Shown piece by piece: positions 20,451 through 55,679 of a stretch of DNA of 64,000 bases (position 1 is its first letter; every line of letters starts with the position of its first letter). The stretch spans positions 64,847 to 128,846 of the forward strand of contig CALXMM010000003.1 in NCBI GenBank assembly GCA_944389475.1. The letters are read 5' to 3'. The position numbers were made by a program, and so were the translations under genes. Under the pieces are notes generated by a model. It did no database searches and was not told the origin of the DNA. It worked only from the letters and a program-made list of their open reading frames with translations. This stretch comes from an uncultured Clostridia bacterium (GTDB lineage: Bacteria; Bacillota; Clostridia; TANB77; CAG-508).

Positions 20451-20494
20451 AAAAGGAAACTATGTTTAATATATTTCATAGTTTCCTTTTTTTA
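20451..20494. terminator. Bidirectional terminator between mgtA and giant gene 1
   Basis: AAAAGGAAACTATG-12 nt loop-CATAGTTTCCTTTT with flanking A and T runs. Confidence 0.7.
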
Positions 20495-32500: not shown

Positions 32501-35500
32501 ATACCATTTTTGTGCCTATATTAATTGTATTAGTTGTAAAATATCCTCCTGTTATAAATCCTCCATCACTTGCTTTTGTAACAGAAACAACACTATCTTT
32601 TTGTTCTATATTTTTTGTCCATTCAACTTCTCCGGATGCATTATATTTCATAAGAATACTTTCATCCTTAGAAAATCCTGCTACAATATAACTTCCATCT
32701 TCTACTTCTACTATAGAATTAACTCCATCTTGAGAATCAGCATTTCCAAATGAATCAAGCCAGTCTATTTCACCTTTTGCATTAAATTTAACTATAAAAG
32801 CATCCTCATATCCACTTGCTGCCTCACTATCAGAATTTGTTAATGTCCTATCTCCTATTTTAATTGAACTACTTGCAAAATATCCTCCTACAAGTACTCC
32901 GCCATCAGTAGTTGGGGCAATACTTTTAACTCCATCATTATAATTTCCTTCTACTTTCTTTACCCATTCCAAATCTCCTGATGAATTATATTTTATTATT
33001 ACTCCTTCTTTTAATCCATTACTCGTTAATTTTTCATTTTCTATTTGGATTGTATCACTTTGGAAATCTCCTCCTGCAACGAAGCCACCATCACTTGTTT
33101 CGGCAACTGATGTCATTTCATCTAGACCAGTTCCACCAATTACCTTTGTCCACTCTACTTCACCTTCTGCATCATATTTTATTATTATACCATCATAGTT
33201 ACCCTTATTTGTAAGTGTTTCATTTCCAATTTGAATTGTACTACTTGTAAAATATCCACATGCTAAATGTCCACCATCACTTGTTGCAGCTACTGAGCTA
33301 ATATAATCAGTTGAATCTCCTCCAACATTCTCTGCCCAAGTTGAGATCATTCCTTCTGGAACTTCTACAGATGTACCTATACCAAAATAATATACCTTAT
33401 TTTTTGTATCGTATTTGTCAGGTGCCTCTACTTCTACAGCCTTGTACAAACCTTCTGTTAAATCAACAACCAATTCGCCCTTTTCATCTGTAGAAACAGT
33501 ATAATATTCTCTTCCATTAATTAATTCTCTATCTCCAAGAATTTCACCCTTACTATTTAAAGCTGGCTTATCTGTTCCATCATCTATGCTATATATTGAA
33601 AATTTAACATTTGGTATTAATTCTCCTGTTTCCTTATCCTTCTTTATTAATTTAAAAGAAGGACTATCCTCTATTGTAAGTTTTACTGTATTTCCATCAA
33701 CAGTATAATTTTCTTCTTTACCTGATGTATTAATAAATTGCAATACACCATCTACATTTTGAACTTTAAATGTTATATCTTTTATATTTACATATCCTTG
33801 TGGTGCCAATACTTCCTTTAATGTATAAGTTGCACTTTCACCTTTTCCTTCTATATATTGGTACAAATTATTTATTGTAACTGTACCTGTGCTATCTGTC
33901 TCAAATTTACCTATTTCTTCTGTTCCTTTATACAATTTAAATTTTGCTCCTGAAAGATATGTTACTTCTGGAATTTCCTTTGTTTCTCCATCATTTTCCA
34001 ACTCTTCTTGAGCCTCTTCTTTGTCTTCTGTTAATCTTGATTCTATAGTTTTCTTTACTTTAATAATTTGCAAACTATATGTTGGTATCTTTTCATCTTC
34101 TAAATCCAATGTAACAGTTGGTATATTATTTTCTTCTGTAACTGTTTGATTCTTAACTGTTCCATTAGTAATTTGAACAGCGTAACTTCCATTGCTATTT
34201 ACTATTTTAAAAGTTATCGGATTAGATAAATAATATCCCTCTGCTTTTGTCTCTTGTAAAGTATATTCATAATCAACATATAATCCATTTATAGAAGCTT
34301 CTCCACTTGGGTTTGTAGTTAATATTCTACCGTTTTCAGGTAATTTATATCCTGTTAATCTATATTTAACATTTTGTAATGCCTTTTCTGTTCCTTGTTC
34401 TGTTTTATGTATTTTTAAACTTGCTTTAACTCCATCTTCTACTTTTACAATTACTTTATAATCCTGACCTTCTTGTTTTACAACTTGAATATCTTCTCTT
34501 GTTTTTCCTTGTGTCTTATCTACACTTAAATTTCCTTCGCCATCCATATGACCAGTAAATTTAATAATATCACTACTTAATTCATAATCACTTGGAACTT
34601 TTATTTCTTGTAATGAATATGATTTTTCTGCATATAAATCATTTATCGTTAATACACCTTGAGTATCTGTAACAGCCGTTTTGCTCTCACCTGTTTCATC
34701 ATCTGTAATACTATATGTTACCCCAGGTATAACTTTATCCATTCCAGCTTGATATTTTGTTAATTCTAAATTATATTTCTCTGCTATTCTAAAACCTAAT
34801 TTATCAGGTTCAGTTTGAGTTTTATATTTTCCTTGGTCAGTATCTATACTAAAATATACTCCGTGATGACTATAAGATACTTTATTAAGTTCAATTCCTT
34901 CTGGTATTTTTACTGTATAATTAAACACATACTCTGTCTCTGTTGGCATTACATATTCGCCTAAATCTATTAAATATGTTTTTATATTATCCCAATTTGT
35001 TACTTCTTCTGCAGTTTTCCATCCATTTTGTTCATTAGTTAAATCTCTATCCGGATTTTCATTTTCAGAATAATACAATGTTGCATATTGTTGTAAGTCT
35101 TCTGGAACTGTTATACCAGTATCTTTCATCCTTGTTGTGAATTCAGAATTCAAATTTTCTCCACTTATTGCATATGTGTTTCCTTCAAAAGGTATTTTAC
35201 CTAAAATTTGTATATCACTTATTGTATTTTCAGAATTGTTACGTATTTGAACACCTATTGTTACTTCTTTTTCTTCTTCTGGAGATGTTACCCCATACAC
35301 TGGTTTTACATCCGCAACTTGTGGTGATACTATTTGACTTCCTTTATCATCATAATTACTTCCTATTTGGTTTGTTAGTAAACTATTTGATGAAACAAAA
35401 CTCATATTTATAGTATTATAATTTACTTTTTCTTCTGTGTTTAGGTTATCATTTACATCATAAATATCATTTGCAGAATAATAATAATCACTATCTACTC

Positions 35501-37673
35501 CATTTGCTGAATATAATTCTATTGTACTATCTTTAGCAGATATTCTTGAGTCCGGTGTTAAGCTTACATCAATAGTTATATTATATGATTGTGGTGTCTC
35601 ATCTGCATTTTGTGTGTTAATCTTTATTAATTTAATTCCATCACGCTCTACTAATTCATAACTTGTTATTCCAACATTTCCATTATCTATTTCCACATTA
35701 TTAATTTCTGCAGAAAGTATTTCTTCTGGTAATTTAACAATAAAACTACCATTTACCCATCCACCTTCATTATTTGCACTATCATAACTAGCACTTATTG
35801 TAATTTTTTCATTTTTAGTTGTTGATTGAATAGGAATTATGTTTTCACTTATTCCAACCTTTGCAATAGAAAATGGCTCTTCATATAATGCTGTTCCTTC
35901 TGAAGTTCCTAAATCTGTTCCATTCATGTATGCTACAAAAGATGATTCTATATTTTTAAAATTATCAAAATCTTCTCTTGTGTATGTAGTTGTAATATAC
36001 TCATCATCCAATACTTTTAAATTATATACATATATGGTACTATTTGCATTTGTATCGCTTGTTTCTACTCTTATATGTTTTACTGGGAATTCATATGTAT
36101 ATGGGTTTTCACTAGTATAATTAGACCAATTTTCCTTTGTAAATGTTGCTAATAAATCTCCGGTTTCATCATCATATACTTTAATCCAACCATCTTCTTT
36201 TAATAGATTATCTGCTCCTGAGAATGCTATTCCTATATTTGATGTAGCATTTTCCATACTCTCTTTACTTGAATCCACTTTAATAAAATTATCAGATATT
36301 TGTTCTTGTCCATCAGGTGTTTCTTTTAATACTAATCCAGTTGATTCGCCTTCTGCTCCTAAATTTACATTCCAAACAACTTGATATTTATCATCATTTT
36401 CATCTTCATTTGTTCCATTATATATTTTTAATGGCTTTTCTTTAGAAACTATAAACCTACCTTCTGGATTATATAAATATTTACCAACTATTGTTTCTAA
36501 AGTTGTTTCAACAGATACAGGCTGAATATATGTAGCAGTTAAAATTCCTGTTGCAGTATTAGAAGTATATGGGTTTGTAAACTCACTACTTGTATTGTTA
36601 TATCCTTCATAATACGTACTTACAGGTATTTTTAATACTATTTCCCCCATATTTTGATATGCCTCTAATGGATATACCACTTGTACAGTATATGAATTAT
36701 CTCTAGATATGCCACTTGTTACAGTTCCATCTTCTTCTACTTGAGCTTCTCTATATATCTCTAGGACTTTAGTTTCTGCATCATAGTAAGAATCTGCATT
36801 ACTTCCGGTATATGTAACACTTATTGGGTCAAATCCGTTTAATTGTGGTATTTCGGCTGTTACATGATTATCTTTTAAGATTAATTCTTTGTCTGTTTCC
36901 TGTGTATCTATACTAAAATCCAATGTTACTGTTTTATTATTTTCATCAATCCTATTCTCTAAAGAATAGGTACTTTGAGTTTGATTAATTATTTCTGCAT
37001 TTGCAGTTCCATACCAATCAACATTAAAATTAACAGTTTTTGTTATTGGAGTTTCTTGGTCATCTGCATTTACATATGTTCCTGTTAATGTAATACTGTC
37101 CAACTTGCTATAATTATTTACATTGTCACCTATTGCTGAATTTATACTCGCCGGATTAGAATAATCTCCACTTCTAACTAATCCTGTTATAACTTTTTGT
37201 GTTTCACTGTTCAAATCATTAAATTCAATAGTTCTAATATTATTTCCAATATAGTTATCTTTTAGTTGTTCATCTTGAGGAAGGGATGTTTGAAAATAGA
37301 AATTACCATCATTTATCGTAATTTTTGCATCTTTTAGATAACCTGCTGTATCAACACTAAGATTCATGTACAAGATATCTTCTTGTCCTATTTGTTTGCA
37401 AGTTCCTCTAATCTTTTCTTCATTTCCATCACCATCTAAATCACGCAAAAAGAAAGCATCGAATTTAACACATTCATTTGTATCATCAACTATTTCTTCA
37501 CCATCTTTTACTTGGTCATATTCTATTGATTTTGCTAGTTCTGAGTTTTTCTTTGCAATATTCACTCTTTTTACATTAACAATGGCAATTCCAATTACCA
37601 TTGCTAAAATTATTGCAACTATTCCTCCTATCAAAATTAGTTTTACTTTCATTCCATTGTGATTTTTTAACAT
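20562..37673 (-). CDS. Giant (5703 aa) multidomain cell-surface protein with a C-terminal sorting signal
   Basis: Unbroken 17.1-kb ORF in AT-rich DNA.
- N-terminal TM.
- Cna-B/SpaA-like domains (e.g. YNLELTKYQAG...TINDLY...YSLQEIKVPSDYEL).
- 14 SBBP-type blades (GG..DYI.SV..TSDGG...GGYF.S.TIQ.GN..L.N.G..DGLIIKY...GEVEW).
- 11 Cna_B repeats (VTKVWDDN.N..GKRP.SV).
- MucBP-like units (V.VHHY......YYY).
- DUF11-like modules (TYTVRIKNTGN...LPEG).
- C-terminal SVETGEF, a hydrophobic segment and a KRHKDKK tail. Confidence 0.9.
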   Translation of the reverse strand: MLKNHNGMKVKLILIGGIVAIILAMVIGIAIVNVKRVNIAKKNSELAKSIEYDQVKDGEEIVDDTNECVKFDAFFLRDLDGDGNEEKIRGTCKQIGQEDILYMNLSVDTAGYLKDAKITINDGNFYFQTSLPQDEQLKDNYIGNNIRTIEFNDLNSETQKVITGLVRSGDYSNPASINSAIGDNVNNYSKLDSITLTGTYVNADDQETPITKTVNFNVDWYGTANAEIINQTQSTYSLENRIDENNKTVTLDFSIDTQETDKELILKDNHVTAEIPQLNGFDPISVTYTGSNADSYYDAETKVLEIYREAQVEEDGTVTSGISRDNSYTVQVVYPLEAYQNMGEIVLKIPVSTYYEGYNNTSSEFTNPYTSNTATGILTATYIQPVSVETTLETIVGKYLYNPEGRFIVSKEKPLKIYNGTNEDENDDKYQVVWNVNLGAEGESTGLVLKETPDGQEQISDNFIKVDSSKESMENATSNIGIAFSGADNLLKEDGWIKVYDDETGDLLATFTKENWSNYTSENPYTYEFPVKHIRVETSDTNANSTIYVYNLKVLDDEYITTTYTREDFDNFKNIESSFVAYMNGTDLGTSEGTALYEEPFSIAKVGISENIIPIQSTTKNEKITISASYDSANNEGGWVNGSFIVKLPEEILSAEINNVEIDNGNVGITSYELVERDGIKLIKINTQNADETPQSYNITIDVSLTPDSRISAKDSTIELYSANGVDSDYYYSANDIYDVNDNLNTEEKVNYNTINMSFVSSNSLLTNQIGSNYDDKGSQIVSPQVADVKPVYGVTSPEEEKEVTIGVQIRNNSENTISDIQILGKIPFEGNTYAISGENLNSEFTTRMKDTGITVPEDLQQYATLYYSENENPDRDLTNEQNGWKTAEEVTNWDNIKTYLIDLGEYVMPTETEYVFNYTVKIPEGIELNKVSYSHHGVYFSIDTDQGKYKTQTEPDKLGFRIAEKYNLELTKYQAGMDKVIPGVTYSITDDETGESKTAVTDTQGVLTINDLYAEKSYSLQEIKVPSDYELSSDIIKFTGHMDGEGNLSVDKTQGKTREDIQVVKQEGQDYKVIVKVEDGVKASLKIHKTEQGTEKALQNVKYRLTGYKLPENGRILTTNPSGEASINGLYVDYEYTLQETKAEGYYLSNPITFKIVNSNGSYAVQITNGTVKNQTVTEENNIPTVTLDLEDEKIPTYSLQIIKVKKTIESRLTEDKEEAQEELENDGETKEIPEVTYLSGAKFKLYKGTEEIGKFETDSTGTVTINNLYQYIEGKGESATYTLKEVLAPQGYVNIKDITFKVQNVDGVLQFINTSGKEENYTVDGNTVKLTIEDSPSFKLIKKDKETGELIPNVKFSIYSIDDGTDKPALNSKGEILGDRELINGREYYTVSTDEKGELVVDLTEGLYKAVEVEAPDKYDTKNKVYYFGIGTSVEVPEGMISTWAENVGGDSTDYISSVAATSDGGHLACGYFTSSTIQIGNETLTNKGNYDGIIIKYDAEGEVEWTKVIGGTGLDEMTSVAETSDGGFVAGGDFQSDTIQIENEKLTSNGLKEGVIIKYNSSGDLEWVKKVEGNYNDGVKSIAPTTDGGVLVGGYFASSSIKIGDRTLTNSDSEAASGYEDAFIVKFNAKGEIDWLDSFGNADSQDGVNSIVEVEDGSYIVAGFSKDESILMKYNASGEVEWTKNIEQKDSVVSVTKASDGGFITGGYFTTNTINIGTKMVSNNGSIDGLVIKFNANGEVEWAKNIGGTAYDYIESIYATADEGFVVGGYFQSSTIQLENETVQNNGSYSYDGIIIKYNANGEAQWAENVGGNNNDYIESVSATSDGRGYIAGGYFNSTTIQVGNRTLTNNGSYGIDGLVIKFENKELPNPIVLKSKVVGGSKAEQITSLAKTIDGGYLAGGYFKGNIDVGNVSLINNGNNDGLVIKYNSKGEVEWANNIGGSSNDEIVSVTATSDGGCIAGGYFQGMISIGNIVLANSGNNDGIVIKYNSEGKVEWAKNVGGSGYDYIQSVSATSDGGCIAGGYFASSTIKVDELELTNNSTVSINPYDGLLIKYTSEGKVEWARNIGGNDYDYIQSVFVTNDGGIIVGGYFASSTLQIDNELLSNKGETDGLVIKYDNTGEVEWAKSIGGTRDDYINSVIETSDGGVLIGGYFKSSTVQVDNKTLSNSSISGSYDGLIVKYNNAGEVEWTNNIGGSDNDEIRSVAESVDGGYIVGGYYASSTIQLGSEILTNNGSLGNDGLLIKYTNNGIIEWVKNIGGSSNDYVETVIETYDGRDIAGGYFSSSTIQIDNHTLENNGDSDGMILDIINQVGVPETQELVVENEIKDLKITTATRTMDDKKGGSISGEGMNTYETIRYGENSTKPIIITPEEGYEIINITVNGEELPFTANEDGTYTMPQFTNVTEDKFVVVTFALKTNKLIINKIDSKTGAKLPGASFIIKEIDSNYYAKATTNSSGQAIAQVHYGNYEIIETKAPEGYEPNTTPLEISFTEDGSHEFTIENTHKSQVLVHHYLKTEDGQYSTTKVAEDELLEGKNGEKYTTSPKLDLNEYELEKDEDGEYVIPANATGTFEPGITEVTYYYQEKKIPLTVHHYIDGTTTPVPLKNGDTAKDETYSGKKDEEYSTSAIENNKLSDDYELVDTPSNATGVYSGNGVVVTYYYKKVSRQVLINKYDEETNSSIEGAKFTIASKDAPQTIIGEYITDSNGQAKFNLEAGDYIATEIEVPEGYKLPENNVSEFSVSRENDIVTLNISNARLKGTVITHYYIEDTNTNVPNNSNGVVEDVVQTGNVGEIYATKEADNVSENYELVSTEGETSGIIQKDTIEVTYYYRLKSASVLVHHYIDGTDINVPSKNGGVVEDELINGRVTDTYNTSESENVANNYEVVEENLPKNSNGTMTLEQIVVTYYYKLKEPTIEQSKIDKTSTLEKVTEKDQAVPYSITYSANVDTYIGEAEVIIVDTLPYAIDKEKSNLNDGNYDENTNTITWTESITGIDTFANGEKQINVTKNISLVYQNLDVTKASVTNKVTGTLNLKTPEKTNTVENTKDIPTEFLKDVKVTKVWNDNGNSAGKRPNSVTLVLTGNGQTYKQPISSINAVAENENNWEYTFIDLPEYDESGKEIDYQVSEERSLEDNNKFYVESYDQTSKTITNTFSVPDEKITVTAKKYWDDNGNSAGKRPETAILTLTGKGEGVDISKEQEITLSNRVAGDDNTWEYTFTELPKYDNNGDEVVYTINEKNIESIFYIKSDVNQETRTITNTFHVPGDKVDVVVTKVWDDNNNFAEKRPASATLQVKNGNQVVASEAVTIDDAVNGDQNKWSHTFNVPKYDENGDVITYTADEENLKNKFYTRENTVIDGNMESGYTITNKFVVPNERISIPVTKIWDDNNNFAGKRPSSVTMKLKGIGEGVDSSYEEELTTENVDSSNENIWRFTFTDLPNLDEKGNEINYVLSEKLDNIYYKPENSKVEQDTKTITNTFKVPTDKITIPVVKIWDDNNNIANKRPDDVVLVLTGNDGSNPHKATLSGHNADLNDGNKWLYTFTDLPKYNSVNGDEIIYTLSEEDLGNKFYTRANTVINQEEKTVTNKFEVPDERTQVTVNKVWNDNNNRAGKRLNSVTISISGNGKTEEVVLNSGYAVENQNIWEYTFTNLQKLDSMGDEIEYTIAEEESKEENSKFYTSSVSQLTKTVTNTFQVPDERISVPVTKVWDDNGNSAEKRPSSLTMVLRGTGEGVNTSYEQELTSQNADPSNNNHWTYTFSDLPKYDANGDEIEYLLGEKLENIYYTNLNSDIDQDTKTITNKFKVPNDKISIPVTIDWNDNGNIANKRPSSIDIVVTASDGSGPYRNSLTKDNVDDTDSNKWTYTFMELPKYNSVNGDEITYSVNEENVNSKFYITSVDQQTRTITNTFSVPDETVSVTAKKVWDDNENFAEKRPDSAILTVTGIGEGVNISKEEKVTEDDAINEDKNTWEYTFTNLPKYDDYGDEISYTINEKDIESIFYIKSNLNQETRTVTNKFQVPGDKANIVVTKVWDDNGDIAGKRPASVTLQVKNESGIVASEVVTEKNAVNGDKNRWQYTFSVPKYDEKGNIINYSADEENLNDKFYTAENKIISGDMNSGYTISNKFVVPDERISVPVAKVWDDNENSKGKRSSSVIMVLRGTGEGVNTSYKQELTSQNADPSNNNTWTYTFNNLPRLDNYGNDIIYTVDEEDLGNKFYKKGSIDQISKTVTNISVYGRVIVHHYIMDDNGITTTTKVPSIDGGEVQDDIIEGAQGEEYTTNPAGNIMQNYELVQERIPNNKTGEITKEDTEVIYYYRLKNPSGTNTIEKSGTDKITSANQEMNYTITYNANINDYIGNAEVTIIDTLPYALDTSKSNDLDGGTYNETDRTITWAENVSNLNSYNGKGTVNITKNIKVFYVGLDMNQEKITNNVKGHIKLLTPERISKEASNNFESTIYKPIISAEKFVDKTETSEKDKVTYTVRIKNTGNLGKTVTLADSLPEGMSFDSSTQIKVGNIGTSYTEENLKSGIQVDVPEFTTVDVVFAGIVDDLAEGEYSKALKNVASVDNKQTNEVITNVTKANISAKQESDPANGSKVRESDTITYRIKLKNDGTRDGTALVKDVIPTGTTFVDGSIKVGDIADSSKTALDLQNGINVAVGINFEVIVEFKVIVNTLVDGTILKNIVYINTNGQDEKIPEELQHTYVEPKDNPEISMTGTSAIENLDQEITYNISYFTQISDYEGKAKVVLVDKLPYALDETKSELDGGTYDALNKTITWEQEVQGMQLTETKEVSINKQIKVVYQGITQNTVSIENIVNAHIEYETPERIGDEVTAKCTTTTGFIVNIPVSKVWEDEDNKLGQRPTKVVFKLKGSDGSERTMELAKPGTKGTTTTQDSTNPNKWNDIFTNLPKYDVNNQEIKYTVTEINGDLSYYSATVDNTGRVVTNTNKYGKVTVHHYIMNLDGTKTTNKVIGTDGQEIQDEVIEGKEGEPYKAKPAENINEKYELVQDATVGNSEGILEKYNEEKPQEVTYYYRLKPAKVIIHYIEKDLDDNDGNNQVLANNEQIDGHVDDQYNTDTEHKKDKIEKDGKTYTLVSKSGNVQGNMTVADTNVTYYYLQNTRATVRYVERDSETHQIIKDLETPYTKEGLVGDEFVTNSKNFQGYKLVESPEKTKIKMTKEEQTLIYYYEKIKTKLLENHIDDITGKILYTEEHNVPVGDNYNISSKNFEGYDLVENKLPENNKGTIGEEAVTVNYYYIKKAVLEVNYIDRETGEPLAEQIVDDTKHEGDSYTTEQRSIEDYDLVDVSSNANGILAVETDEQGNITNNRTVVTYYYAKKSTGVEVHHIDILSGEELEPLTLQEGHIGDLYDIKPKEFLSYAVAETDKNGNNILPANAKGKMTKDKIVVNYYYYQPAKVIVHFVDKTTGKEIEETNSKTGELQNSQVILEGQKDDEYTTNPKEFEYYSLVESPKDSSGKMKVEITKDKDDKDIVNNTIELYYYYEPKPFNLGVEKEITGIIINGNRRSATNGKLERVEIYRKSTENTSVQIEYKIKVINTSKVEGRAIIEDKLPEGMSLAHNDGTWEENNGTLRKVIPEIKGGETKEYTVLLNWKGSGENMGNKVNEVSLIQTDNVPGFKDENDKDNTDEATAIISVETGEFPTGLLFVLAILVVLESVTLRYAVVLTKRHKDKK
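24965..28495 (-). repeat. Array of 11 tandem Cna_B-type repeats with higher-order segmental duplication
   Basis: Eleven (V/I)(T/A)K(V/I)W(D/N)DN.N...KR(P) units of about 95 aa. Unit types follow the order A-B-C-D-E / A-D-E / B-C-D. The segments at about 25.2-26.0 kb and 27.45-28.25 kb are about 80% identical at nucleotide level, as are those at 25.98-26.30 kb and 26.95-27.27 kb. Confidence 0.8.
30745..33345 (-). repeat. Two tandem seven-blade SBBP-type beta-propeller repeat sets (gene 1)
   Basis: 7 + 7 blades of about 60 aa, counted from the translation. The two sets are split by KFENKELPNPIVLKSKVVGG (about nt 32060). Confidence 0.75.
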
Positions 37674-37915
37674 CTATATTCCCCCAAGAAATAACTAATA
37701 TTTCCTTTTATATTTCATTTATTGTATCAAGTTTATTTCTTATATTAAATAGCTCTTTTTTCTAGTTTTCTTGGGCTGTTTTAGGTATATTTACGCAAGC
37801 TATTGGTGCACGCTTTAGGTTTTAATATTACATTTTTATGTTTTTTTCGATATAGTTTGTCAAATAAGAATATAAAGCTCTCTTTTATTGTATTTCCGTA
37901 AGGTTTTCGGTTTTT
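37674..37915 (-). promoter_or_regulatory. Conserved leader/promoter region of giant gene 1 with an RBS-sequestering helix
   Basis: Homologous to 55094-55355. The arms at 37767-37775 and 37683-37691 are perfectly complementary (CCCAAGAAA / TTTCTTGGG) and cover the SD. A conserved AAAAATGTAATATTAAA block may be an extended -10 element. Confidence 0.5.
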
Positions 37916-38022
37916 TACAATTTTGTACATTTATATTTTTGTGTAAAAAATAAGAGTACCTACAAAGTATTTCTACTCTATAGGTACTCAATTTTTCTTT
38001 TGTATATTTAGCATAATAAACA
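37888..38022. repeat. Direct repeat copy A (about 135 bp) flanking the ATPase/Rpn cassette
   Basis: Shares the identical 34-nt core AGTACCTACAAAGTATTTCTACTCTATAGGTACT (37955-37988) with 40970-41003, plus about 80%-similar flanks. Confidence 0.6.
37945..37988 (-). terminator. Terminator hairpin (copy A)
   Basis: AGTACCTA-18 nt loop-TAGGTACT, followed on the minus strand by CTTATTTTTT. It lies downstream of the ATPase gene and upstream of leader 1. Confidence 0.5.
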
Positions 38023-38111
38023 AAAAAAGTGGAAAACTATATTTTAACTCTATAATCATCCACTCTTTATATATAACTTATACTAATTATATCTAATTTT
38101 TTAATTTATTC

Positions 38112-39419
38112 CTATAAACTCAATTTATCTAAACAAAAAACACTGTATAAAGGAATACACTTTATATCATTTTCAAATCCAAAATTCTTAGTTGATACTC
38201 TTATTGAATATTTAATATTATATAAACTTTTAAATACATTTAAACTTTTTGACCTTGTATGCGCACTTGATTTTACTTCTATTGGAATAATATTTCCTTC
38301 TTTATCTTGCACAACAAAGTCAACTTCTGCTTTTCCGTTTGATTCCCAATAATATGGTCTTAAACCTGCTTTAACCAAACTACTACATACATAGTTTTCT
38401 GCTAATGCTCCTTTAAAATCATTCAAATTATCATTATCTACAATTATAATATTGGTAGGTATACCAAATTTATTACACAATAACCCAACATCATTCATAT
38501 AAATCTTAAAACTCTCCGGCTCTATAAATGCAGAAAGCGGTAATTTACCTTCTCTTGTTTTAGTGCATTGTATAATAATTCCTGAAGCATTCAACCAATT
38601 AATAGCAGTCTCATATTCATATGCTCTCGCCCCTGATTTTATCAATTTGTATTGAAATTTTCTATTTTCTTTTGCTAATTGTGAAGAAATGCTATTATAT
38701 ACTGCCATTATTTTAGTCGTTTCTGTTGCTGTAGCATATTTTGCCATATCCGCTATATACGAATTATTAATATCCTTTAATATTGATGATACAAAATCCA
38801 TATCCTGTTTTTCTTTATATTCTAATATTGCCCTTGGCATTCCACCAATTGCTAAGTATAAACGATAATAGTTATTTGCTAAACCATGCAAAGAAAATTC
38901 TCTATCACTTTCAAAAGCATCCCTTATTAAATTTGCTAAATCTCTCCTATCCATTGCCCACAAAAACTCTTCAAAATCTAATGGGTATAATGTTAGCATT
39001 TTTACTTTGCCTACCGGGAATGAATATTTATTTCTATTTATTGCTATTCCTAACAAAGAACCCGCTGCTATTACATGATATTTGTAATTACTCTCTGCAA
39101 AATATTTTAAAGATGTTAATGCTCTTTCGCAGGTCTGAATTTCATCAAAGAAAATTAATGTGTCTTCTTCCATTATTGTTATTCCTAATCTTACACTTAA
39201 TTCTTTAATGATTCTGTCCACCTCTAAATCTTGTTCAAAGATTTTAGCAATCTCTCTGTTATCCTCAAAATTTATATATACAACATTTTTATAATTCTCT
39301 TTTCCAAAAGATAGAATTGTATATGTTTTTCCAACTTGTCTTGCTCCATAAATAATTAGTGGCATCTTTTCTTGATTATCTTTCCATTCAAGTAATATTT
39401 TTGACATTTTTCGTTCCAT
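38112..39419 (-). CDS. AAA_14 ATPase with a DUF4143 C-terminal domain
   Basis: Walker A YGARQVGKT and Walker B LIFFDEIQ, with a C-terminal ...GKAEVDFVV.....IPIEVKS (DUF4143-like) region. Start set at the MERKMSK ATG (39419), 8 nt after AGGAGG. Confidence 0.75.
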   Translation of the reverse strand: MERKMSKILLEWKDNQEKMPLIIYGARQVGKTYTILSFGKENYKNVVYINFEDNREIAKIFEQDLEVDRIIKELSVRLGITIMEEDTLIFFDEIQTCERALTSLKYFAESNYKYHVIAAGSLLGIAINRNKYSFPVGKVKMLTLYPLDFEEFLWAMDRRDLANLIRDAFESDREFSLHGLANNYYRLYLAIGGMPRAILEYKEKQDMDFVSSILKDINNSYIADMAKYATATETTKIMAVYNSISSQLAKENRKFQYKLIKSGARAYEYETAINWLNASGIIIQCTKTREGKLPLSAFIEPESFKIYMNDVGLLCNKFGIPTNIIIVDNDNLNDFKGALAENYVCSSLVKAGLRPYYWESNGKAEVDFVVQDKEGNIIPIEVKSSAHTRSKSLNVFKSLYNIKYSIRVSTKNFGFENDIKCIPLYSVFCLDKLSL

Positions 39420-39614
39420 TTTATGTGCCTCCTTTACATTTATTGTAACATGCATTTATTGATATGTCAATTTGAAGATGTTATTACTAAATAATTTAGT
39501 CTTGCTAACATTAATTTAAATGAAAAAGAAACATCTATTATTAAGTGTTTGCTTTAATTTTAAAACTTGCACTTTAATAGATGTTTCTAATTTCATTATG
39601 CTCATATTAATTTA

Positions 39615-40475
39615 TTATATTTCCTTAGTTAATTTTTCAATTTCTTCTTCGTTTAGTTCAGTTATTTTTAATATCACATCTTTAGGCATTTTTTCTTTTA
39701 GCATTTTCTTAGCTATCTCTATTTTTTCTTGTTTTCGTCCTTCTTTTTGACCTTCTTTTTGTCCTTGTTTTCGTCCAATTTTTTCGCCATCTTCTCTTGC
39801 TCCTTCCATATTCGTTACATAATCTTTTAATGCTTTTTCCCTTAAAAAAGCTTTTCTCCTTACTGCTTCATCTCCTGTTAGATATTCTAGTTCATCTGAT
39901 GCTTCTTTTACTTTTTTATTCTCTTCCATTGCCTTTTTTACCCCCTTTTCATCTTGACCATCTATGAATTTTAACCATTGCCATAATTTCTTGTTCTCTT
40001 TTTCACTCCCTTCCTTTTTAAATTTTGGTATTTGTATAAAATGCATTTCTAAATCATTTGTTAGTAATTTATTTTTATATTCTCTTCTTATCGTTGCTAC
40101 TTCATGATATGGTCCTTCTTTAAAGATATCAAAATTTAATATATTTATTGTTACTACTCTATTATTTTTCTTATAATTTCCTCCACTTTTTAGTCCATTA
40201 TAATATAATCCTGACCAATAGAATAATGACCTTTCTGTCATATTATATTGGTCTTGCATTTGCATTTCTATATCTATTGTTATTCCATTATCTATTACTG
40301 CTTCTATATCTAATATTCCTTCTTTATTATCTATTAAATCTCTTTCTAAATCTACTTCTGCTTTTATCTCTATTTGATGAATATTTATATTTAATATTCC
40401 ACTTAATAAATCTATTAGCATTCCTTTATTCTTATTGTTTCCAAAAACTTTTTTAAAAATAAAGTCATTTGTCAT
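39615..40475 (-). CDS. Rpn-family recombination-promoting nuclease / putative transposase (PD-(D/E)XK, TIGR01784-like)
   Basis: N-terminal TNDFIFKKVFG, the GILDIEAV...IDIEMQ core (D...ExQ variant of the PD-(D/E)XK motif) and ...VVTINILNF, followed by a K/E/Q-rich C-terminal helical tail. Confidence 0.75.
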   Translation of the reverse strand: MTNDFIFKKVFGNNKNKGMLIDLLSGILNINIHQIEIKAEVDLERDLIDNKEGILDIEAVIDNGITIDIEMQMQDQYNMTERSLFYWSGLYYNGLKSGGNYKKNNRVVTINILNFDIFKEGPYHEVATIRREYKNKLLTNDLEMHFIQIPKFKKEGSEKENKKLWQWLKFIDGQDEKGVKKAMEENKKVKEASDELEYLTGDEAVRRKAFLREKALKDYVTNMEGAREDGEKIGRKQGQKEGQKEGRKQEKIEIAKKMLKEKMPKDVILKITELNEEEIEKLTKEI

Positions 40476-40892
40476 TTTTAATTTATAATCTTTTTCTTCT
40501 TCTATAATACATCTCTCCTCTCAATTATATAAAAATATTTCGTATAATTCAACTTATTAATTAAAATTTGCATAATTAATAAAGGTATTTATTTACCTCT
40601 TTCTTTTTCTTAATAATTTGGAATTTCCTTAGAAATTTAAGAATTAAAACTTTTTAATTTTTATTAATAATTATTAAAAAAATTTAAATATGAATAAAAA
40701 CATGAATAAAACTAAAACTTTAAAACTTACTAATGTTATTTATTTAAAAAGTATTTATTAAAAATTTGATTCGATAGTTTAAATTTAAATGTTTCGAATG
40801 TTATTTATTTATAACACATTTTTACATTATTTTCAATCATTTTTCATCTACATTATTCGAGCTTTTTCGAGATTTCTTAAGATGTATTGTAT

Positions 40893-41030
40893 TGGCTTTT
40901 TCAAAGATTTCATACTTTTAAGGCTTTTCTTATTACAATTTTCGTAATTTATAAATTTTATATTATAAAAAGTACCTACAAAGTATTTCTACTCTATAGG
41001 TACTTAATCTTTTCTTTCGTATATCTAACA
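40893..41030. repeat. Direct repeat copy B flanking the ATPase/Rpn cassette
   Basis: See copy A. The identical 34-nt core lies at 40970-41003, and the similarity extends about 75 bp to the left and about 28 bp to the right. Confidence 0.6.
40966..41003 (-). terminator. Terminator hairpin of giant gene 2 (copy B)
   Basis: Same hairpin as 37955-37988, about 90 nt after the gene 2 stop, followed on the minus strand by TTTTTA. Confidence 0.6.
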
Positions 41031-41095
41031 TATTTTTCCTATGTCTTTATATACTACTTCTTTTGTTCCTTAAGTCTTTATCTTCTGTCATTTTA

Positions 41096-44000
41096 TTATT
41101 TCTTGTTATTTTTCTTTTGTCTCTTTGTTAGAACTACTGCATATCTTAATGTTACACTTTCTAGTCCTACTAATGCTACTAAAGCTATTAATAATCCTAC
41201 TGGGAATTCACCAGTTTCTACACTTATTGATACTGTTGCATTATCCGTATTATCTTTATCATTGCTATCTTTGAATCCTGGTACGTTATCTGTTTCTGTT
41301 AATGCTACTTCATTAACCTTGTTACCCATATTATTTCCAGATGTCTTCCAGTTTAATAATACTGTGTATTCTTTAGTTTCTCCAGCTCCTATTTCTGGTA
41401 TTACCTTTCTAATAGTTGTTTCGCCGCTTTCTGCAGCATTTACGCTTGATACTTCCCATGTTCCATCATTATTTGCTAAAGTCATTCCTTCTGGTAATTT
41501 ATCTTCTACTATTGCCCTTCCGGAAATTTCTCCAGTGTTCATAACTTTTATCTTGTACTCTACTTGTACACTTGTGTTTTCTGTGCTCTTTCTATAGATA
41601 TCTACTTTTTCTAGTTTTCCATTTGTTGCATTTCTTCTTTCACCATTTACTATTATTGCAGAAATATCTTTTTCTACTCCAATATTAAATGGTTTTGGTT
41701 CGTAGTAATAGTAAACATCTTTTGTGTTGTTAACTATATCTTTTCCATTTTCATCCTTTGTGATTTCTACTTTCATCTTACCATTTGGTTCTTTTGGACT
41801 TTCTACTAATTTATAGTATTCAAAGTCTTTTGGTGTTGTTGTATAGTCATCATCTTTGTATCCTTCGATAATTACTTGTGATGATTGTAGTTCTCCTGTT
41901 TCTGGATTGTTTTCTTCTAGTTCTCTTCCTGTTGTTCTATCTACATAGTGTACTATTACTTTTGCTGGTTGATTATAATAGTAATTTACTACTATTTTAT
42001 CTTTTGTCATTGTTCCTTGAGCATTTGTTGGTAACATATTGTTTCCATCTTTATCTTCTGTTACTAATTCGTAACTTAAGAATTCTTTTGCACTTGTAGT
42101 ATATTCATCTCCAACATGTCCATTGTAAATTGTTGGTTCTGCCAACTCTTCTCCTGTTACTATGTCTATGTGGTGTTCTTCTACTACTGCTTTTCTTACA
42201 TAATAATATGTTACTACTGTCTTATTATTCGTTATATTACCATTTTCATCTGTTTCTACTGTTAGAGTTCCATCTTTGTTTGATGGTACTTCTACTAAGT
42301 CAAAGTCTTCGAATGTCTTTTGCTCTGTTGTGTATGGGTCACCTTCATGTTTTGTATCATCAACTATTTGGTCTGTTAAAGGTTCTCCTGTTTCTTTATC
42401 TATGTAGTTTACTTCTAATACTGCTTTCTTTATGTAATAGTAATTTACTGTTACAAGTTCTTCTCCCATTGTTCCACTTGCGTTGTTTGGAAGTTTTGTT
42501 GTTACTAAATCATATCCTACAAAGTTCTTGCTTGGTATGTTGTAACTATCTCCTACTTGAACTTCATGTTCTTCTGTATATAAGATTTTCCCTGTTTTGT
42601 CATCTATGTGGTTTTCTAGTAATCCAGTATATACTGGCTCATACCAATATATTAAGGTTTGTTCTTCTTTTGTCATGTTTATTGTTGTTGGATTTGGACT
42701 TTGTATTAATTTATATCCTGTGAATTCTTTTGAGTTTGTTACAAATTCATCTCCAACTAATCCTTCTTCTGTTCTTGGTGTCTCTAAATCTTTTACTATT
42801 TCTCCTGTCTCTGGATTTCCTTCCACATATCTAACTGTTGCTTTTGTGTTTTGTAGATAGTAATATGTTACATTTGTGTCTGCTACTGTCATTGTTCCTT
42901 GTGTGTTTCCACTATTAGAAACTAATGTGTATGTTTTACCATCTTTTGTTATTGTATCTTTCTTATGTTCTGTATCTGTGTTGTATTGGTCATCTACGTG
43001 TCCATCAATTTGCTCATTATCTGATAAAACTAGGTTATTGCCATCATTATCATCTGAGTCCTTTTCTAGGTAATGTATTATTACTTTTGCTGGTTTTAAT
43101 CTGTAATAATATATTACTTCTTGTGGTTTTTCTTCATCATATTTTTCTATTGTTCCATCTGGTTTCTCTGGTAATTTTTCTTGGACTAACTCATATTTTT
43201 CATTTACATTGTCTGCTGGCTCTGTCTCATATGGGTCTCCTTCTTTTCCTTCGATTATCTCATCTTGAACCTCGTTTCCTTCTTTGTCTGGGACTCTTGT
43301 TTCTGTTGTACTTCCATCTGGATTCATTACATAATGATGTACTGTTACTTTTCCGTATTTATTTGTGTTTGTAACAGTTTTATCTGTTACTACACTATCG
43401 TAATATTTTAAGTCTCCATCTGTCTTTTGTTCTTCTGTTAATGTATATACAATTTCTTGTTTATTAGCATCATATTTTGGTAAGTCTGTAAATATATCAT
43501 TCCATTTATTTGGATTTTCGCTATCTTGTGTTGTAGTTGTGTTTGCTGTTCCTGGTTTTGCTACATCCAATGTTCTTACACTTCCATCACTACCTGTTAA
43601 CTTAAATACTACTCTTGTTGGTCTTTGTCCTAGTTTGTTATCACTATCATCCCATATTTTGCTTACTGGTATATTTACTATAAATCCTGTTGTTGTTGGC
43701 CAGTTTGCTGTTACTTCTTCACTTGTTCTATCCGGTGTTTCATATTCTATATGAGCTTTTATATTATTTTTAATACTCAATGTGTCTTGGCTAATTCCTG
43801 TATATACAACTTTTATTTGTTTATTTATTGTTACTTCTCTACCTTCTGTCATTTGTATATTTTCTACTGGTTGTTCCCATGTTATTGTCTTGCTTGCTGC
43901 ATCATATGTTCCACCATCTAAGTCTTCTAATATATTTGTTTTTGTTGTATCTATTTCATATGGTAATTGATCTACTAATACAATCTTTGCATTTCCTTCA

Positions 44001-55093: not shown

Positions 55094-55355
55094 AATGAAA
55101 TCCCTCCAACAAAAAAGTCATTTTTCGCTATATTATCTGTTTTATTTTATCAACTTTATTTCTTATATTAAATAGCACTTTTTGCCATGTGTTGGAGGGT
55201 GTTCCGCGCCTATTTACGCAAGCTCCTAATGTGTGGTTTAAAGTTTAATATTACATTTTTGTGTATTTTTTGATACATTTTGACATAAGGGATTTGGAAA
55301 AATCCTTTTTTCTCTTTTTATATCTTCTATTTCTTCTTTCCGTAGTTTTTCTTAA
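55094..55355 (-). promoter_or_regulatory. Conserved leader/promoter region of giant gene 2 with an RBS-sequestering helix
   Basis: The arms at 55190-55199 and 55102-55111 are perfectly complementary (CCCTCCAACA / TGTTGGAGGG) and cover the SD GGAGG. Sequence blocks are shared with 37674-37915. Confidence 0.5.
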
Positions 55356-55383
55356 TGGTTTAAATTTTTATAGTTCAAAAATA

Positions 55384-55572
55384 GTGGAAAATGAAATAAC
55401 TGATTCTAAGAAAAAACAGGAATACTGGGAAACAGGTATAGGCTTAAATAAGGTTGATAATTTAGAACCTTCTAAATATTTATTAGACTTATCCCAGAAA
55501 AACATTAATGGGGAATTAAAGTATAACGAAGTAGAAAATTTATTACAGGAAAAAAGGACCTTTCCAAATTGA
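55384..55572 (+). pseudogene. Possible remnant of a VbhA-like antitoxin / Fic N-terminal module
   Basis: QEYWETGIGLNKVDNLEPSKYLLDLSQKNINGELKYNEVENLL fits the ..EGL.PS........GEI...E pattern of VbhA-type domains. There is no convincing start or RBS. The first 40 codons of the tracked ORF overlap the gene 2 leader and look non-coding. Confidence 0.3.
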
Positions 55573-55679
55573 TTGAACCAAAATTGTAAAACTTCTTATC
55601 TAACAATTTTGTTTCAGTACAATCCCGGAATAGGTCCTTTTTCTATATAAATCTTTTATCCAGTTACAATTTATTTCGA

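What the first reader, a model, noticed from the sequence alone, without database searches (positions are those of the whole stretch)
37888..41030. ATPase + Rpn-nuclease cassette inserted between the giant paralogs, bracketed by ~135-bp direct repeats
The 34-nt terminator hairpin AGTACCTACAAAGTATTTCTACTCTATAGGTACT occurs identically at 37955-37988 and 40970-41003. Sequence similarity continues on both sides, for example TTACAATTTTGTACATTTATA versus TTACAATTTTCGTAATTTATA to the left and TTTTCTTTTGTATATTTAGCATA versus CTTTTCTTTCGTATATCTAACATA to the right.

Copy B is the natural 3' flank of gene 2, and copy A abuts leader 1. The simplest reading is an ancestral junction of gene2-terminator-leader1-gene1 into which a 2.9-kb segment was inserted with duplication of the junction. 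That segment holds the AAA_14/DUF4143 ATPase, the Rpn-family PD-(D/E)XK nuclease and 0.4 kb of extremely AT-rich DNA.

Rpn proteins are described as recombination-promoting nucleases. One sitting exactly between two 14-17-kb homologous genes could drive gene conversion or module exchange, but that link is speculative.
Basis: partly seen in the sequence, partly recalled or inferred. Interest (0 to 1): 0.62.

Follow-up and report, generated by a model that had tools for sequence, protein, structure and literature searches.

The report
Defence genes between giant adhesin genes
Two phage-defence-type genes (an Rpn toxin-antitoxin nuclease and a PDC-S01 ATPase) sit between two giant adhesin genes of an uncultured chicken-gut spore-former. 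The repeat that brackets them is the terminator-plus-upstream junction that recurs between genes of this array, not the footprint of a recent insertion.

Summary
Similarity extends to about 115-120 nt at 82.5% identity, and 76% outside the hairpin. The gene calls are also right: an Rpn/PDDEXK_2 nuclease with RpnL/RpnS hallmarks, and an AAA_14/DUF4143 ATPase that matches PADLOC PDC-S01.

The proposed history, a 2.9-kb insertion that duplicated the junction, is only partly supported.
- All 11 conspecific contigs carry the cassette and both hairpins. No empty site was seen.
- The hairpin occurs about 3-4 times per genome, always at the 3' ends of giant adhesin genes. A relative has a variant with a compensating insertion in both arms.
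- Rpn, with a conserved upstream block and short upstream ORF, lies next to a giant adhesin gene at 7 loci. One is the syntenic position beside mgtA in a relative that lacks the ATPase and gene 1. The ATPase is not a fixed partner of Rpn.
- Half of the strains carry an extra truncated Rpn and a third giant gene (5135 aa), starting a few bases after hairpin A.

Best reading: the repeats are paralogous copies of the array's junction (3' UTR tail, terminator, start of the next gene's upstream region), and the identical hairpins bound unit gain and loss. This is a mostly ordinary finding of modest interest.

The parts
41096..55093 (-). Gene 2: giant surface adhesin, 4665 aa. It has SpaA, Cna_B and MucBP repeats and a C-terminal VETGE motif, membrane segment and basic tail.
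   Evidence: ORF list; Pfam families on conspecific contigs and on its last 1000 aa; C-terminal translation. Its size ranges from 2396 to 6277 aa among strains.
40919..41032 (-). Repeat copy B: the last 28 nt of the gene 2 3' UTR, the hairpin, and about 52 nt resembling the start of the region upstream of gene 1.
   Evidence: Sensitive blastn and global alignment: 82.5% identity over 120 columns.
40971..41004 (-). Hairpin B: the intrinsic-terminator-like stem-loop of gene 2, 91 nt after its stop codon.
   Evidence: Exact match; terminator scan; fold of -20.9 kcal/mol, z -6.6; a variant hairpin follows a gene-2-like C-terminus in L027.
40870..40970 (-). A stub of about 100 nt between hairpin B and the Rpn module. 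It is absent at other terminator-to-Rpn junctions and weakly resembles the first part of a giant-gene upstream region.
   Evidence: Multi-locus alignment; pairwise comparison with other upstream regions, 70% identity to that of gene 1.
40815..40869 (-). Conserved block at the left end of the Rpn module: CGAAAAAGCTCGAATAATGTAGATGAAAAATGATTGAAAATAATGTAAAAATGTG.
   Evidence: Conserved after five different terminators, in the window, L003, L011, L016 and L020, and recognisable in L030.
40476..40814 (-). AT-rich spacer that holds the Rpn promoter-like site (40524-40552) and a conserved 9-codon upstream ORF, MYYRRRKRL* (40483-40512).
   Evidence: GC of 16.4% over 40476-40970; promoter scan with 10 of 12 matches; upstream ORF conserved in L011, L016 and L020.
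39615..40475 (-). Rpn-family PD-(D/E)XK nuclease, 286 aa, of the RpnL type.
   Evidence: PF12784 at E 1.7e-49 and TIGR01784 at E 5.5e-46; PF27070 HTH_Rpn_C in precomputed hits; D56, D68, E70 and Q72 conserved among homologues.
39615..39809 (-). Candidate intragenic RpnS antitoxin frame. It starts at Met223 and contains the 12-nt (4-aa) repeats at 39718-39789.
   Evidence: Tandem 12-nt repeats; translation; homologues differ here by indels of 4 aa or multiples of it, in most rows. The pattern matches the one described in PMC10400941.
39522..39588 (-). Rpn's own terminator hairpin, followed by a T run.
   Evidence: Inverted repeat I3; fold of -31.9 kcal/mol, z -6.8.
39442..39470 (-). Promoter-like site of the ATPase gene: TTGACA, 17 nt, TACAAT, with a TG extension.
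   Evidence: Best match in the region, 11 of 12.
38112..39419 (-). AAA_14/DUF4143 ATPase, 435 aa. It matches PDC-S01, a candidate single-gene defence system in PADLOC.
   Evidence: Pfam; PADLOC PDLC04786 at E 2.6e-170 over its full length; the 435-aa product is the one on record.
38022..38068 (-). The ATPase's own terminator: a GTGGA...TTTTCCAC hairpin plus a run of 7 T ('termX' type).
   Evidence: Fold of -16.9 kcal/mol, z -4.5. The same hairpin type follows giant genes in L011, Rpn in L003 and L016, and the PFL activase gene in L030.
37899..38015 (-). Repeat copy A: 27 nt of 3' UTR-like sequence, the hairpin, and the first ~56 nt of the region upstream of gene 1.
37955..37988 (-). Hairpin A: a second terminator in tandem after the ATPase. 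It is also the left boundary of the strain-specific indel, since homology with L003-type strains ends at 37948.
   Evidence: homology breakpoint.
37674..37954 (-). Upstream region of gene 1 ('leader 1'). It is homologous to the regions upstream of gene 2 (55094-55385) and of giant genes in relatives.
   Evidence: blastn at 70% to the region upstream of gene 2; seven-locus alignment with a conserved GCTTGCGTAAA...CTATTTA core.
20562..37673 (-). Gene 1: giant adhesin paralog of 5703 aa, ending next to mgtA. It has its own terminator of a different type at 20445-20493.

Best explanation
**Setting.** The locus is a tandem array of giant, probably sortase-anchored adhesin genes near the replication origin of an uncultured chicken-gut spore-forming Clostridia-like bacterium.

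**What the repeat is.** Between consecutive giant genes lies a periodic junction: the tail of the 3' UTR, a 16-bp intrinsic-terminator hairpin, and the start of the next gene's upstream region. The two ~115-nt 'direct repeats' are two paralogous copies of that junction. Copy B belongs to gene 2. Copy A now sits in front of gene 1.

**What lies between them.** Two independent transcription units of phage-defence type:
- an RpnL/RpnS-type toxin-antitoxin nuclease with its conserved upstream module;
- a PDC-S01 ATPase.

The Rpn module is an old companion of these adhesin genes. The ATPase is a later, lineage-specific addition.

**How the hairpin behaves.** It is kept identical in all copies within a genome although its flanks have diverged, which fits concerted evolution by recombination among copies. 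The copies act as short direct repeats at which whole units are gained or lost. Strains of the L003 type carry an extra segment right after hairpin A (spacer, truncated Rpn', upstream region, 5135-aa gene 1'). The window's strain lacks it.

**Shown:** the sequence features, the gene families, the comparative contexts, the breakpoint at hairpin A, and the copy number of the hairpin.

**Inferred:** that the hairpin terminates transcription, that recombination between hairpins caused the indel, that gene 1' is itself followed by a hairpin and then gene 1, and that both cassette genes act in defence.
For: **Hairpin as the giant-gene terminator**
- Exact duplicate with a strong fold.
- L027 has a gene-2-like C-terminus followed by a variant hairpin with one base inserted in each arm, which keeps the pairing.
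- In runs X1 and X3, which match the window with zero differences, the hairpin core unitig has 2.4-2.6 times the single-copy depth.
- Four different upstream contexts each occur at about single-copy depth. Two run into giant-gene coding ends, one of them reading ...KRQKKNNKK*. A third downstream context is hairpin, 17 nt, then an Rpn spacer.

**Junction periodicity**
- L029 shows a direct junction of giant gene, terminator, upstream region and giant gene, with no Rpn gene between them.
- Its upstream region carries the same AAACCTACGGAAAAT motif that lies about 60 nt after hairpin A.

**Divergence at paralog level**
- The flanks are 76% identical, whereas the cassette is 99.2-99.8% identical among strains.
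- The stub after hairpin B is only slightly closer to the region upstream of gene 1 (70%) than to other upstream regions (62-64%).

**Rpn is old here; the ATPase is not its partner**
- Rpn homologues at 60-81% identity lie next to giant SpaA/Cna_B/MucBP genes in L003 (second copy), L011-13, L016-17, L015, L018-22 and L030-37.
- L015 and L018-22 share the window's mgtA / MGDG synthase / sleB / ypeB / gdpP flank but lack the ATPase and gene 1.
- In L011 the ATPase homologue is separated from Rpn by a giant gene.
- A conserved left block and upstream ORF define an Rpn module that follows five different terminators.

**Indel at hairpin A**
- Homology between the window and L003, L005, L006, L008 and L010 stops at 37948. 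After that those contigs carry Rpn' and gene 1'.
- In X5 and X7 the L003-specific joint (depth 83.8 and 24.7), the ATPase contig (76.8 and 23.1) and the contig upstream of gene 1 (74.2 and 23.3) have equal depth. All three therefore sit in one genome.
- One sample holds an L003-type contig ending inside gene 1' (coverage 11.2) and a contig with mgtA plus the 5703-aa gene 1 (coverage 10.8).

**Defence character**
- PADLOC PDC-S01 at E 2.6e-170.
- Rpn has 4-aa repeats that begin 8 residues after an internal Met, and homologues vary there by indels of 4 aa or multiples of it, as described for RpnL/RpnS in PMC10400941.
- PDC-S01 is described as an ATPase fused to a PD-(D/E)XK domain, with experimental validation pending for most such candidates (PMC12988326).
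Against: - The junction between gene 1' and gene 1 in L003-type strains was never read. Both proteins exceed the 5000-residue look-up limit, and short-read contigs break at the hairpin. The claim that this indel is bounded by two hairpins is therefore inferred.
- The direction of the event (deletion in the window's lineage or insertion in the other) is unknown.
- The extra hairpin contexts come from metagenome runs. They are assigned to the same genome only because their depth stays proportional to the main strain across samples X1, X3 and X4. One context (38002->41097) is missing in X4.
- Similarity of the flanks outside the hairpin is weak, so the 'leader stub' reading of 40870-40970 is tentative.
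- An ancient insertion with duplication followed by divergence would leave the same picture.
- No expression or termination data are available. The only metatranscriptome run gave one 248-nt contig on Rpn.
Confidence: 0.6

Rival explanations
1. An ancestral junction (gene 2, hairpin, upstream region of gene 1, gene 1) received one inserted segment, 38016-40869, holding the spacer, Rpn and the ATPase. About 120-150 bp of the junction was duplicated in the process. The copies then diverged, except for the hairpin, which stayed under selection.
For: - The repeat ends coincide with the ends of the cassette: copy B stops where the conserved Rpn-module block starts, and copy A starts right after the ATPase terminator.
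- Uninterrupted junctions exist in a relative (L029).
- The stub after hairpin B is somewhat closer to the region upstream of gene 1 than to other upstream regions.
Against: - No empty site in 11 conspecific contigs.
- The flanks differ by 24% while the cassette differs by less than 1% between strains.
- Rpn already occupies this position in relatives that lack the ATPase and gene 1.
- Rpn and the ATPase are separate units and are not linked elsewhere.
- Copy A's downstream half varies between strains, since L003-type strains have a different sequence there. The present A/B pair is therefore not a fixed product of a single event.
Confidence: 0.17
2. Campbell-type integration. A circular molecule carrying Rpn, the ATPase and one hairpin-junction copy integrated by homologous or nuclease-promoted recombination at the resident hairpin. 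That would leave the cargo flanked by direct repeats, and it could excise again.
For: - An identical 34-nt core flanked by diverged arms resembles attL/attR geometry.
- One contig in run X9 joins 40641 back to 38025 through 32 unmatched bases, which could be a circle or a tandem junction (table 5c).
Against: - That joint appeared in one mixed metagenome only, has an unexplained 32-nt filler, and could come from another Rpn locus.
- No integrase or recombinase gene lies in the segment.
- The cassette is present in every conspecific contig.
- Rpn genes are described as not autonomously mobile (PMC10400941).
Confidence: 0.06
3. The ~115-nt hairpin unit is itself a small dispersed repeat (REP- or MITE-like) that spreads to intergenic sites. 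Its two copies around the cassette would then be independent insertions.
For: - There are several copies per genome with an identical core.
- A second hairpin family ('termX') also recurs after unrelated genes in this lineage.
Against: - Every hairpin context recovered is a giant-gene 3' end or the spacer or upstream region that follows one. None lies at an unrelated gene.
- Only two copies occur in the 64-kb window.
- The sequence was absent from 185,579 species-representative genomes and from the JGI metagenome contigs.
Confidence: 0.05

Closest known systems
RpnL/RpnS recombination-promoting nuclease toxin-antitoxin systems (E. coli RpnA-E and RpnP2; PMC5350276, PMC10400941)
   Same: - An N-terminal PD-(D/E)XK nuclease domain and a C-terminal helical HTH_Rpn_C domain.
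- A hypervariable run of 4-aa repeats that begins 8 residues after an internal Met.
- Homologues differ in that region mostly by indels of 4 aa or multiples of it.
- A neighbouring gene of candidate defence type.
- No transposon ends.
   Different: - The Pfam family is PF12784 (PDDEXK_2), not the E. coli YhgA-like PF04754.
- A conserved 55-nt upstream block and a conserved 9-codon Arg-rich upstream ORF precede the gene.
- The gene sits beside giant adhesin genes at 7 loci.
- Toxicity, the RpnS product and any anti-phage effect were not tested.
PADLOC PDC-S01 (AAA_14 ATPase plus a DUF4143 PD-(D/E)XK-like domain; candidate single-gene defence system)
   Same: Full-length HMM match at E 2.6e-170, with the same two-domain architecture.
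   Different: Per PMC12988326, validation is still pending for most candidates of this class, and nothing was tested here. In this window it sits in an adhesin array rather than a recognised defence island.
Tandem arrays of large repetitive surface adhesin genes in Firmicutes that vary by recombination between repeats (general knowledge; not tied to a specific paper here)
   Same: - Paralogous giant genes in tandem.
- Large size differences between strains (2396-6277 aa).
- Whole-gene presence or absence between strains.
- Conserved upstream regions and C-terminal anchors.
   Different: The breakpoint of the whole-unit indel lies at a 34-nt terminator hairpin that is identical among copies, and each unit tends to be accompanied by an Rpn gene.

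Membership tests
Rpn family (TIGR01784 / PF12784 PDDEXK_2) | Profile match above the curated cut-off across the whole protein | tested here: met
   PF12784: 169 bits against a cut-off of 27.4. TIGR01784: 157.6 bits against 52.1, covering residues 2-282.
Rpn family (TIGR01784 / PF12784 PDDEXK_2) | Conserved acidic and polar nuclease-core residues | tested here: met
   D56, D68, E70 and Q72 (ILDIEA ... IDIEMQ) are invariant or nearly invariant in 13 homologues. Which of them are catalytic rests on general knowledge of the PD-(D/E)XK fold, not on a test here. The second copy in L003 (209 aa) lacks the first ~80 residues.
RpnL/RpnS toxin-antitoxin (PMC10400941) | C-terminal domain with a variable number of 4-aa repeats beginning 8-20 residues after an internal start Met | tested here: met
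   Met223 is followed after 8 residues by EKIG RKQG QKEG QKEG RKQE. There are 12-nt tandem repeats at 39718-39789. Homologues differ here by indels of 4, 8, 12 or 16 aa in most rows.
RpnL/RpnS toxin-antitoxin (PMC10400941) | Separate translation of RpnS, toxicity of RpnL, and protection against phage | not testable with these tools
   The only transcript evidence is one 248-nt metatranscriptome contig at 39688-39935.
PADLOC PDC-S01 | Full-length match to a PDC-S01 model, with AAA_14 and DUF4143 domains | tested here: met
   PDLC04786 at E 2.6e-170, residues 12-444 on profile positions 2-434 of 439. Pfam AAA_14 at 4.2e-27 and DUF4143 at 4.7e-35.
PADLOC PDC-S01 | Demonstrated anti-phage activity | not testable with these tools
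   The literature read here says validation is pending for most such candidates.
Rho-independent (intrinsic) terminator | Stable stem-loop followed by a U-rich tract, downstream of a stop codon on the coding strand | tested here: met
   16-bp stem with 4-nt loop. Tails are CUUAUUUUUU for copy A and UUUUAUAAUAU for copy B, the latter weaker. Free energies -26.7 and -20.9 kcal/mol, with no shuffle folding as well. Copy B lies 91 nt after the gene 2 stop.
Rho-independent (intrinsic) terminator | Transcript 3' ends at the U-tract | not testable with these tools
   No usable RNA coverage.
Insertion with target-site or junction duplication (mobile cassette) | Empty-site alleles in close relatives | tested here: not met
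   All 11 conspecific contigs carry the cassette and both hairpins. Short-read unitigs cannot link across the 34-nt repeat, so rare empty sites cannot be excluded.
Insertion with target-site or junction duplication (mobile cassette) | Cargo genes travel together at other sites | tested here: not met
   Rpn occurs without the ATPase in L015-L022 and L030-L037. In L011 the ATPase is separated from Rpn by a giant gene.
Insertion with target-site or junction duplication (mobile cassette) | Repeat copies near-identical, or specific to this site | tested here: not met
   The flanks are 76% identical, and the hairpin occurs about 3-4 times per genome in other adhesin contexts.

The most novel reading that the evidence does not exclude
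The Rpn nuclease is functionally tied to the giant adhesin arrays. It would cut at or near the conserved terminator hairpins or its own conserved upstream block, and so promote RecA-independent gain, loss and exchange of whole adhesin units. The strain-to-strain variation of these surface proteins would then be driven by Rpn rather than being a by-product of repeats. The 7-of-7 adjacency of this Rpn clade to giant adhesin genes, and the indel breakpoint a few bases past an identical hairpin, are compatible with this idea but do not demonstrate it.
Probability: 0.08. Interest if true: 0.7.

Novelty: new member of a known kind. Interest (0 to 1): 0.33.

Why it matters
- **Interpretation of the repeat.** A repeat that looks like an insertion footprint turns out to be the periodic junction of a gene array. 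This keeps the locus from being misfiled as a mobile element.
- **Biology of the locus.** It is a hypervariable set of giant adhesins in a common chicken-gut bacterium. Strains differ by whole 15-kb genes, and the one breakpoint that was read lies a few bases past a terminator hairpin that is identical among copies.
- **A testable lead.** Rpn toxin-antitoxin/defence modules shadow these adhesin genes at seven loci. That gives a concrete place to test whether Rpn nucleases promote recombination in their natural setting, a question left open since they were named.
- **Tempering point.** Both cassette genes are members of families already catalogued as defence or defence-candidate systems, which limits the surprise.

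Tried and rejected
1. **Species-representative genomes.** A scan for the hairpin found no match. A scan with an alignment of the N-termini of genes 1 and 2 found no confirmed relative; the patterns the tool chose lay in the signal peptide, so this says little.
2. **JGI metagenome contigs.** A scan for the hairpin found no match.
3. **Reads on ENA-derived loci.** The gene 1'/gene 1 junction therefore could not be examined directly.
4. **Protein search with the gene 2 C-terminus**, aimed at other hairpin contexts. L026 is an unrelated locus with a different terminator. L027 gave the variant hairpin.
5. **Protein search with the gene 1 N-terminus**. The only close hit, L028, is of the window type.
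6. **A line of evidence I dropped.** I first read the contig joint 38002->41097 as the 3' end of gene 1'. The same joint is present in the window-type runs X1 and X3, so it belongs to another hairpin locus. The three-gene model now rests on depth equality and on the two contigs from one sample.
7. **Known RNA families.** Rfam found nothing in 37400-41300 at E up to 1. RNAalifold on seven giant-gene upstream regions predicted no consensus pairs.
8. **Transcription.** The one metatranscriptome run was too sparse to test termination.
9. **Literature.** A search linking Rpn with MucBP-type adhesins found nothing relevant, and a search on DUF4143/AAA_14 returned noise.
10. **Organism.** It was not identified beyond 'chicken gut metagenome, spore-former, 29% GC, near oriC'.

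Full report
**1. What is in the window.**

All genes between 20.5 and 55.1 kb lie on the minus strand. In the direction of transcription the order is as follows.

| Feature | Coordinates |
|---|---|
| Gene 2 (4665 aa) | 55093->41096 |
| Gene 2 3' UTR (91 nt) | 41095->41005 |
| Hairpin B | 41004->40971 |
| Stub of about 100 nt | 40970->40870 |
| AT-rich spacer (16% GC) | to 40476 |
| Rpn | 40475->39615 |
| Rpn's own terminator | 39588->39522 |
| Promoter-like site, 11 of 12 matches | 39470->39442 |
| ATPase | 39419->38112 |
| ATPase terminator (GTGGA...TTCCAC plus a run of 7 T) | 38068->38022 |
| Linker (33 nt) | 38021->37989 |
| Hairpin A | 37988->37955 |
| Region upstream of gene 1 (281 nt) | 37954->37674 |
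| Gene 1 (5703 aa) | 37673->20562 |

- The giant proteins carry SpaA, Cna_B and MucBP repeats. They end in a VETGE motif, a membrane segment and a basic tail.
- A sortase gene lies at 8912-9664.
- Flanking genes (dnaB, ftsH, tilS, ypeB, gdpP, mgtA, proS), 29% GC and the sources of matching runs (chicken gut) point to an uncultured spore-forming Firmicute, close to its replication origin.

**2.

- The 34-mer occurs exactly twice in the window, and never in shuffles even with three mismatches allowed.
- Both copies fold into a 16-bp stem with a 4-nt loop (-26.7 and -20.9 kcal/mol, z about -7). They are the only two terminator-like sites found in 37-42 kb.
- Similarity runs from 28 nt before the hairpin to about 55 nt after it. 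That is 99 of 120 columns, or 76% once the hairpin is removed.
- On their own the flanks are only modestly above chance for such AT-rich DNA.

**3. The genes.**

*Rpn.* It matches PDDEXK_2 and TIGR01784 over its full length.
- It has the hallmark described for RpnL/RpnS toxin-antitoxin defence systems (PMC10400941). An internal Met (residue 223) is followed after 8 residues by tandem 4-aa repeats, encoded by the 12-nt repeats at 39718-39789.
- Homologues differ in exactly this region, mostly by indels of 4 aa or multiples of it.

*ATPase.* It is AAA_14 plus DUF4143 and matches PADLOC's candidate system PDC-S01 at E 2.6e-170.
- The literature read here describes PDC-S01 as an ATPase fused to a PD-(D/E)XK domain.

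Each gene has its own promoter-like site and terminator, so they form two units rather than one operon.

**4. Same-species comparison.**

- Ten contigs encoding the identical Rpn, plus one found through the gene 1 N-terminus, all carry Rpn, the ATPase and both hairpins. No empty site was seen.
- The cassette is 99.2-99.8% identical among them.
- Gene 2 ranges from 2396 to 6277 aa.
- Five of the ten contigs (the 'L003 type') match the window up to 37948, seven bases past hairpin A. They then continue with a second AT-rich spacer, a truncated Rpn' (209 aa), a terminator, a diverged upstream region and a different giant gene of 5135 aa.
- The first 5 kb of that gene is 75% identical to gene 1 and 81% identical to gene 2.

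**5. L003-type strains most likely have three giant genes.**

- In runs X5 and X7 three things have the same depth: the L003-specific joint (83.8 and 24.7), the ATPase contig (76.8 and 23.1), and the contig holding the region upstream of gene 1 with its N-terminus (74.2 and 23.3). A mixture of two strain types would make the shared ATPase depth the sum of the other two.
- One sample yields an L003-type contig that ends inside gene 1' (coverage 11.2). It also yields a contig with mgtA plus the 5703-aa gene 1 (coverage 10.8).
- In these runs the contig upstream of gene 1 reaches 30 nt into a hairpin.
- The window's strain therefore lacks a segment of roughly 17 kb (spacer', Rpn', gene 1') that starts a few bases after hairpin A. 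Its other end presumably lies at another hairpin copy. That far junction was not read.

**6. The hairpin is the family's terminator, not a site-specific footprint.**

Runs X1 and X3 match the window with zero differences, so they represent the window's own strain.
- The hairpin core unitig has about 2.4-2.6 times the single-copy depth.
- Four upstream contexts appear at about single-copy depth: A, B, a coding end reading ...KRQKKNNKK* 15 nt from the hairpin, and a fourth that shares A's flank up to 38017.
- Three downstream contexts appear: the region upstream of gene 1, B's stub, and 17 nt followed by an Rpn spacer.
- The depths of the extra contexts track the main strain across X1, X3 and X4.

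A relative (L027) has a gene-2-like C-terminus followed by AGTACCTATAGAAGTAGAAATACTTTAATAGGTACT. This is the same hairpin with one base inserted in each arm, which preserves the pairing. The copies are identical within a genome but differ from the relative's copy, while their flanks have diverged. That pattern fits concerted evolution.

**7. Related loci.**

Rpn homologues of 60-81% identity were looked up in their contigs.

| Locus | Arrangement |
|---|---|
| L011-13 | giant gene, terminator, spacer, Rpn, giant gene, terminator, ATPase homologue |
| L016-17 | giant-gene end, terminator, spacer, Rpn, giant gene |
| L015, L018-22 | giant-gene end, related hairpin, spacer, Rpn, then the window's own right-hand flank (mgtA, MGDG synthase, sleB, ypeB, gdpP); no ATPase, no gene 1 |
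| L030-37 | housekeeping genes, Rpn, giant gene |
| L029 | direct junction of giant gene, terminator, upstream region, giant gene; no Rpn gene between them |

- Counting the window and the second copy in L003, that makes seven loci in which this Rpn clade lies next to a giant adhesin gene.
- The Rpn module has a conserved 55-nt left block, a conserved promoter region and a conserved 9-codon Arg-rich upstream ORF. It follows five different terminators.
- Only in the window is there an extra stub of about 100 nt between the terminator and that block. The stub weakly resembles the first part of a giant-gene upstream region.

**8. Interpretation.**

- The two repeats are best read as two paralogous copies of the array's junction (3' UTR tail, terminator, start of the next upstream region). 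The Rpn and ATPase genes are lodged between them.
- Rpn is an old resident. The ATPase, and possibly gene 1, are additions specific to this lineage.
- The hairpins act as short identical direct repeats at which units are gained or lost.
It is not needed, and several of its predictions failed: empty sites, a travelling gene pair, and a site-specific repeat.
- Whether Rpn promotes these rearrangements is open. The adjacency at seven loci is compatible with shared ancestry of [Rpn plus adhesin] units. It is equally compatible with defence genes collecting in a variable region.

**9. Verdict.**

- The genes are new members of known families.
- The repeat is an ordinary by-product of a tandem array.
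- The recurring Rpn-adhesin neighbourhood and the hairpin-bounded indel give it modest interest.

Noticed in passing
window 40483-40512 (-); also L011, L016, L020 just upstream of their Rpn genes: A conserved 9-codon Arg-rich upstream ORF (MYYRRRKRL*, MKYRRRKKL*, MDYRRRKRL*, MYYRRRL*) with a strong GGAGAG ribosome-binding site ends 7 nt before the Rpn start codon, which has no obvious site of its own. This suggests translational coupling or control of the toxin gene.
   Followed up: partly
window 38022-38068, 20445-20493; L011 9607-9650 and 19874-19912; L003 13548-13592; L016 ~1483-1523; L030 7599-7640: A second hairpin family (GGTGGAAAACTAT...ATAGTTTTCCACC plus a T run) recurs as the terminator of unrelated genes in this lineage: giant adhesins, Rpn, the ATPase and the PFL activase. 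It looks like a lineage-wide stereotyped terminator or a dispersed repeat.
   Followed up: partly
window 37674-37954 and 55094-55385; L003 13593-13853; L011, L016, L029, L030 upstream of giant genes: All giant-gene upstream regions share a conserved core, AAAATGTAATATTAAA ... GC(T/A)T(G/C)CGTAAA ... stem-loop ... CTATTTA. L011, L016 and L029 have a near-perfect stem of about 16 bp there. There was no Rfam hit and RNAalifold found no consensus. It could be a regulatory leader or an operator region for these 14-17-kb genes.
   Followed up: partly
L001-L010 (gene 2 orthologues): Gene 2 is 2396, 2723, 4495, 4657 or 6277 aa in different strains of one species, although the DNA is otherwise more than 93% identical. 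This implies rapid gain and loss of internal repeat modules.
   Followed up: no
L029 10786-10813: A (CA)13 tract lies inside the 5' coding end of a giant adhesin gene in a relative, where the ORF calls are fragmented. It may be a slipped-strand phase-variation switch or a long-read assembly error.
   Followed up: no
L018-L022 (for example L020 around 620-665): In the relative whose Rpn sits next to mgtA, the Rpn reading frame has a premature stop after about 40 codons and is called as a 236-aa product. This looks like decay of the nuclease N-terminus, as in the 209-aa Rpn' of L003-type strains.
   Followed up: partly
window 55378-55573 (+): A 64-codon ORF lies just upstream of gene 2's upstream region, on the opposite strand, with no Pfam hit. 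It begins inside what looks like the half-remnant of a termX-type hairpin. From memory its sequence resembles the N-terminal part of Fic-family proteins; this was not tested.
   Followed up: no
window 8912-9664 (+) and the C-termini of genes 1 and 2 (20562-20700, 41096-41230): A sortase gene lies 11 kb from the array. Both giant proteins end in ...SVETGEFP, a hydrophobic segment and KRQKK-type tails, which is a non-canonical sorting-signal candidate.
   Followed up: no
run X9, joint 40641 -> 38025 with a 32-nt filler (table 5c): One metagenome contig joins the Rpn spacer back to the sequence just downstream of the ATPase. This could be a circle, a tandem copy, or a different Rpn locus. It was seen in one mixed sample only.
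   Followed up: no
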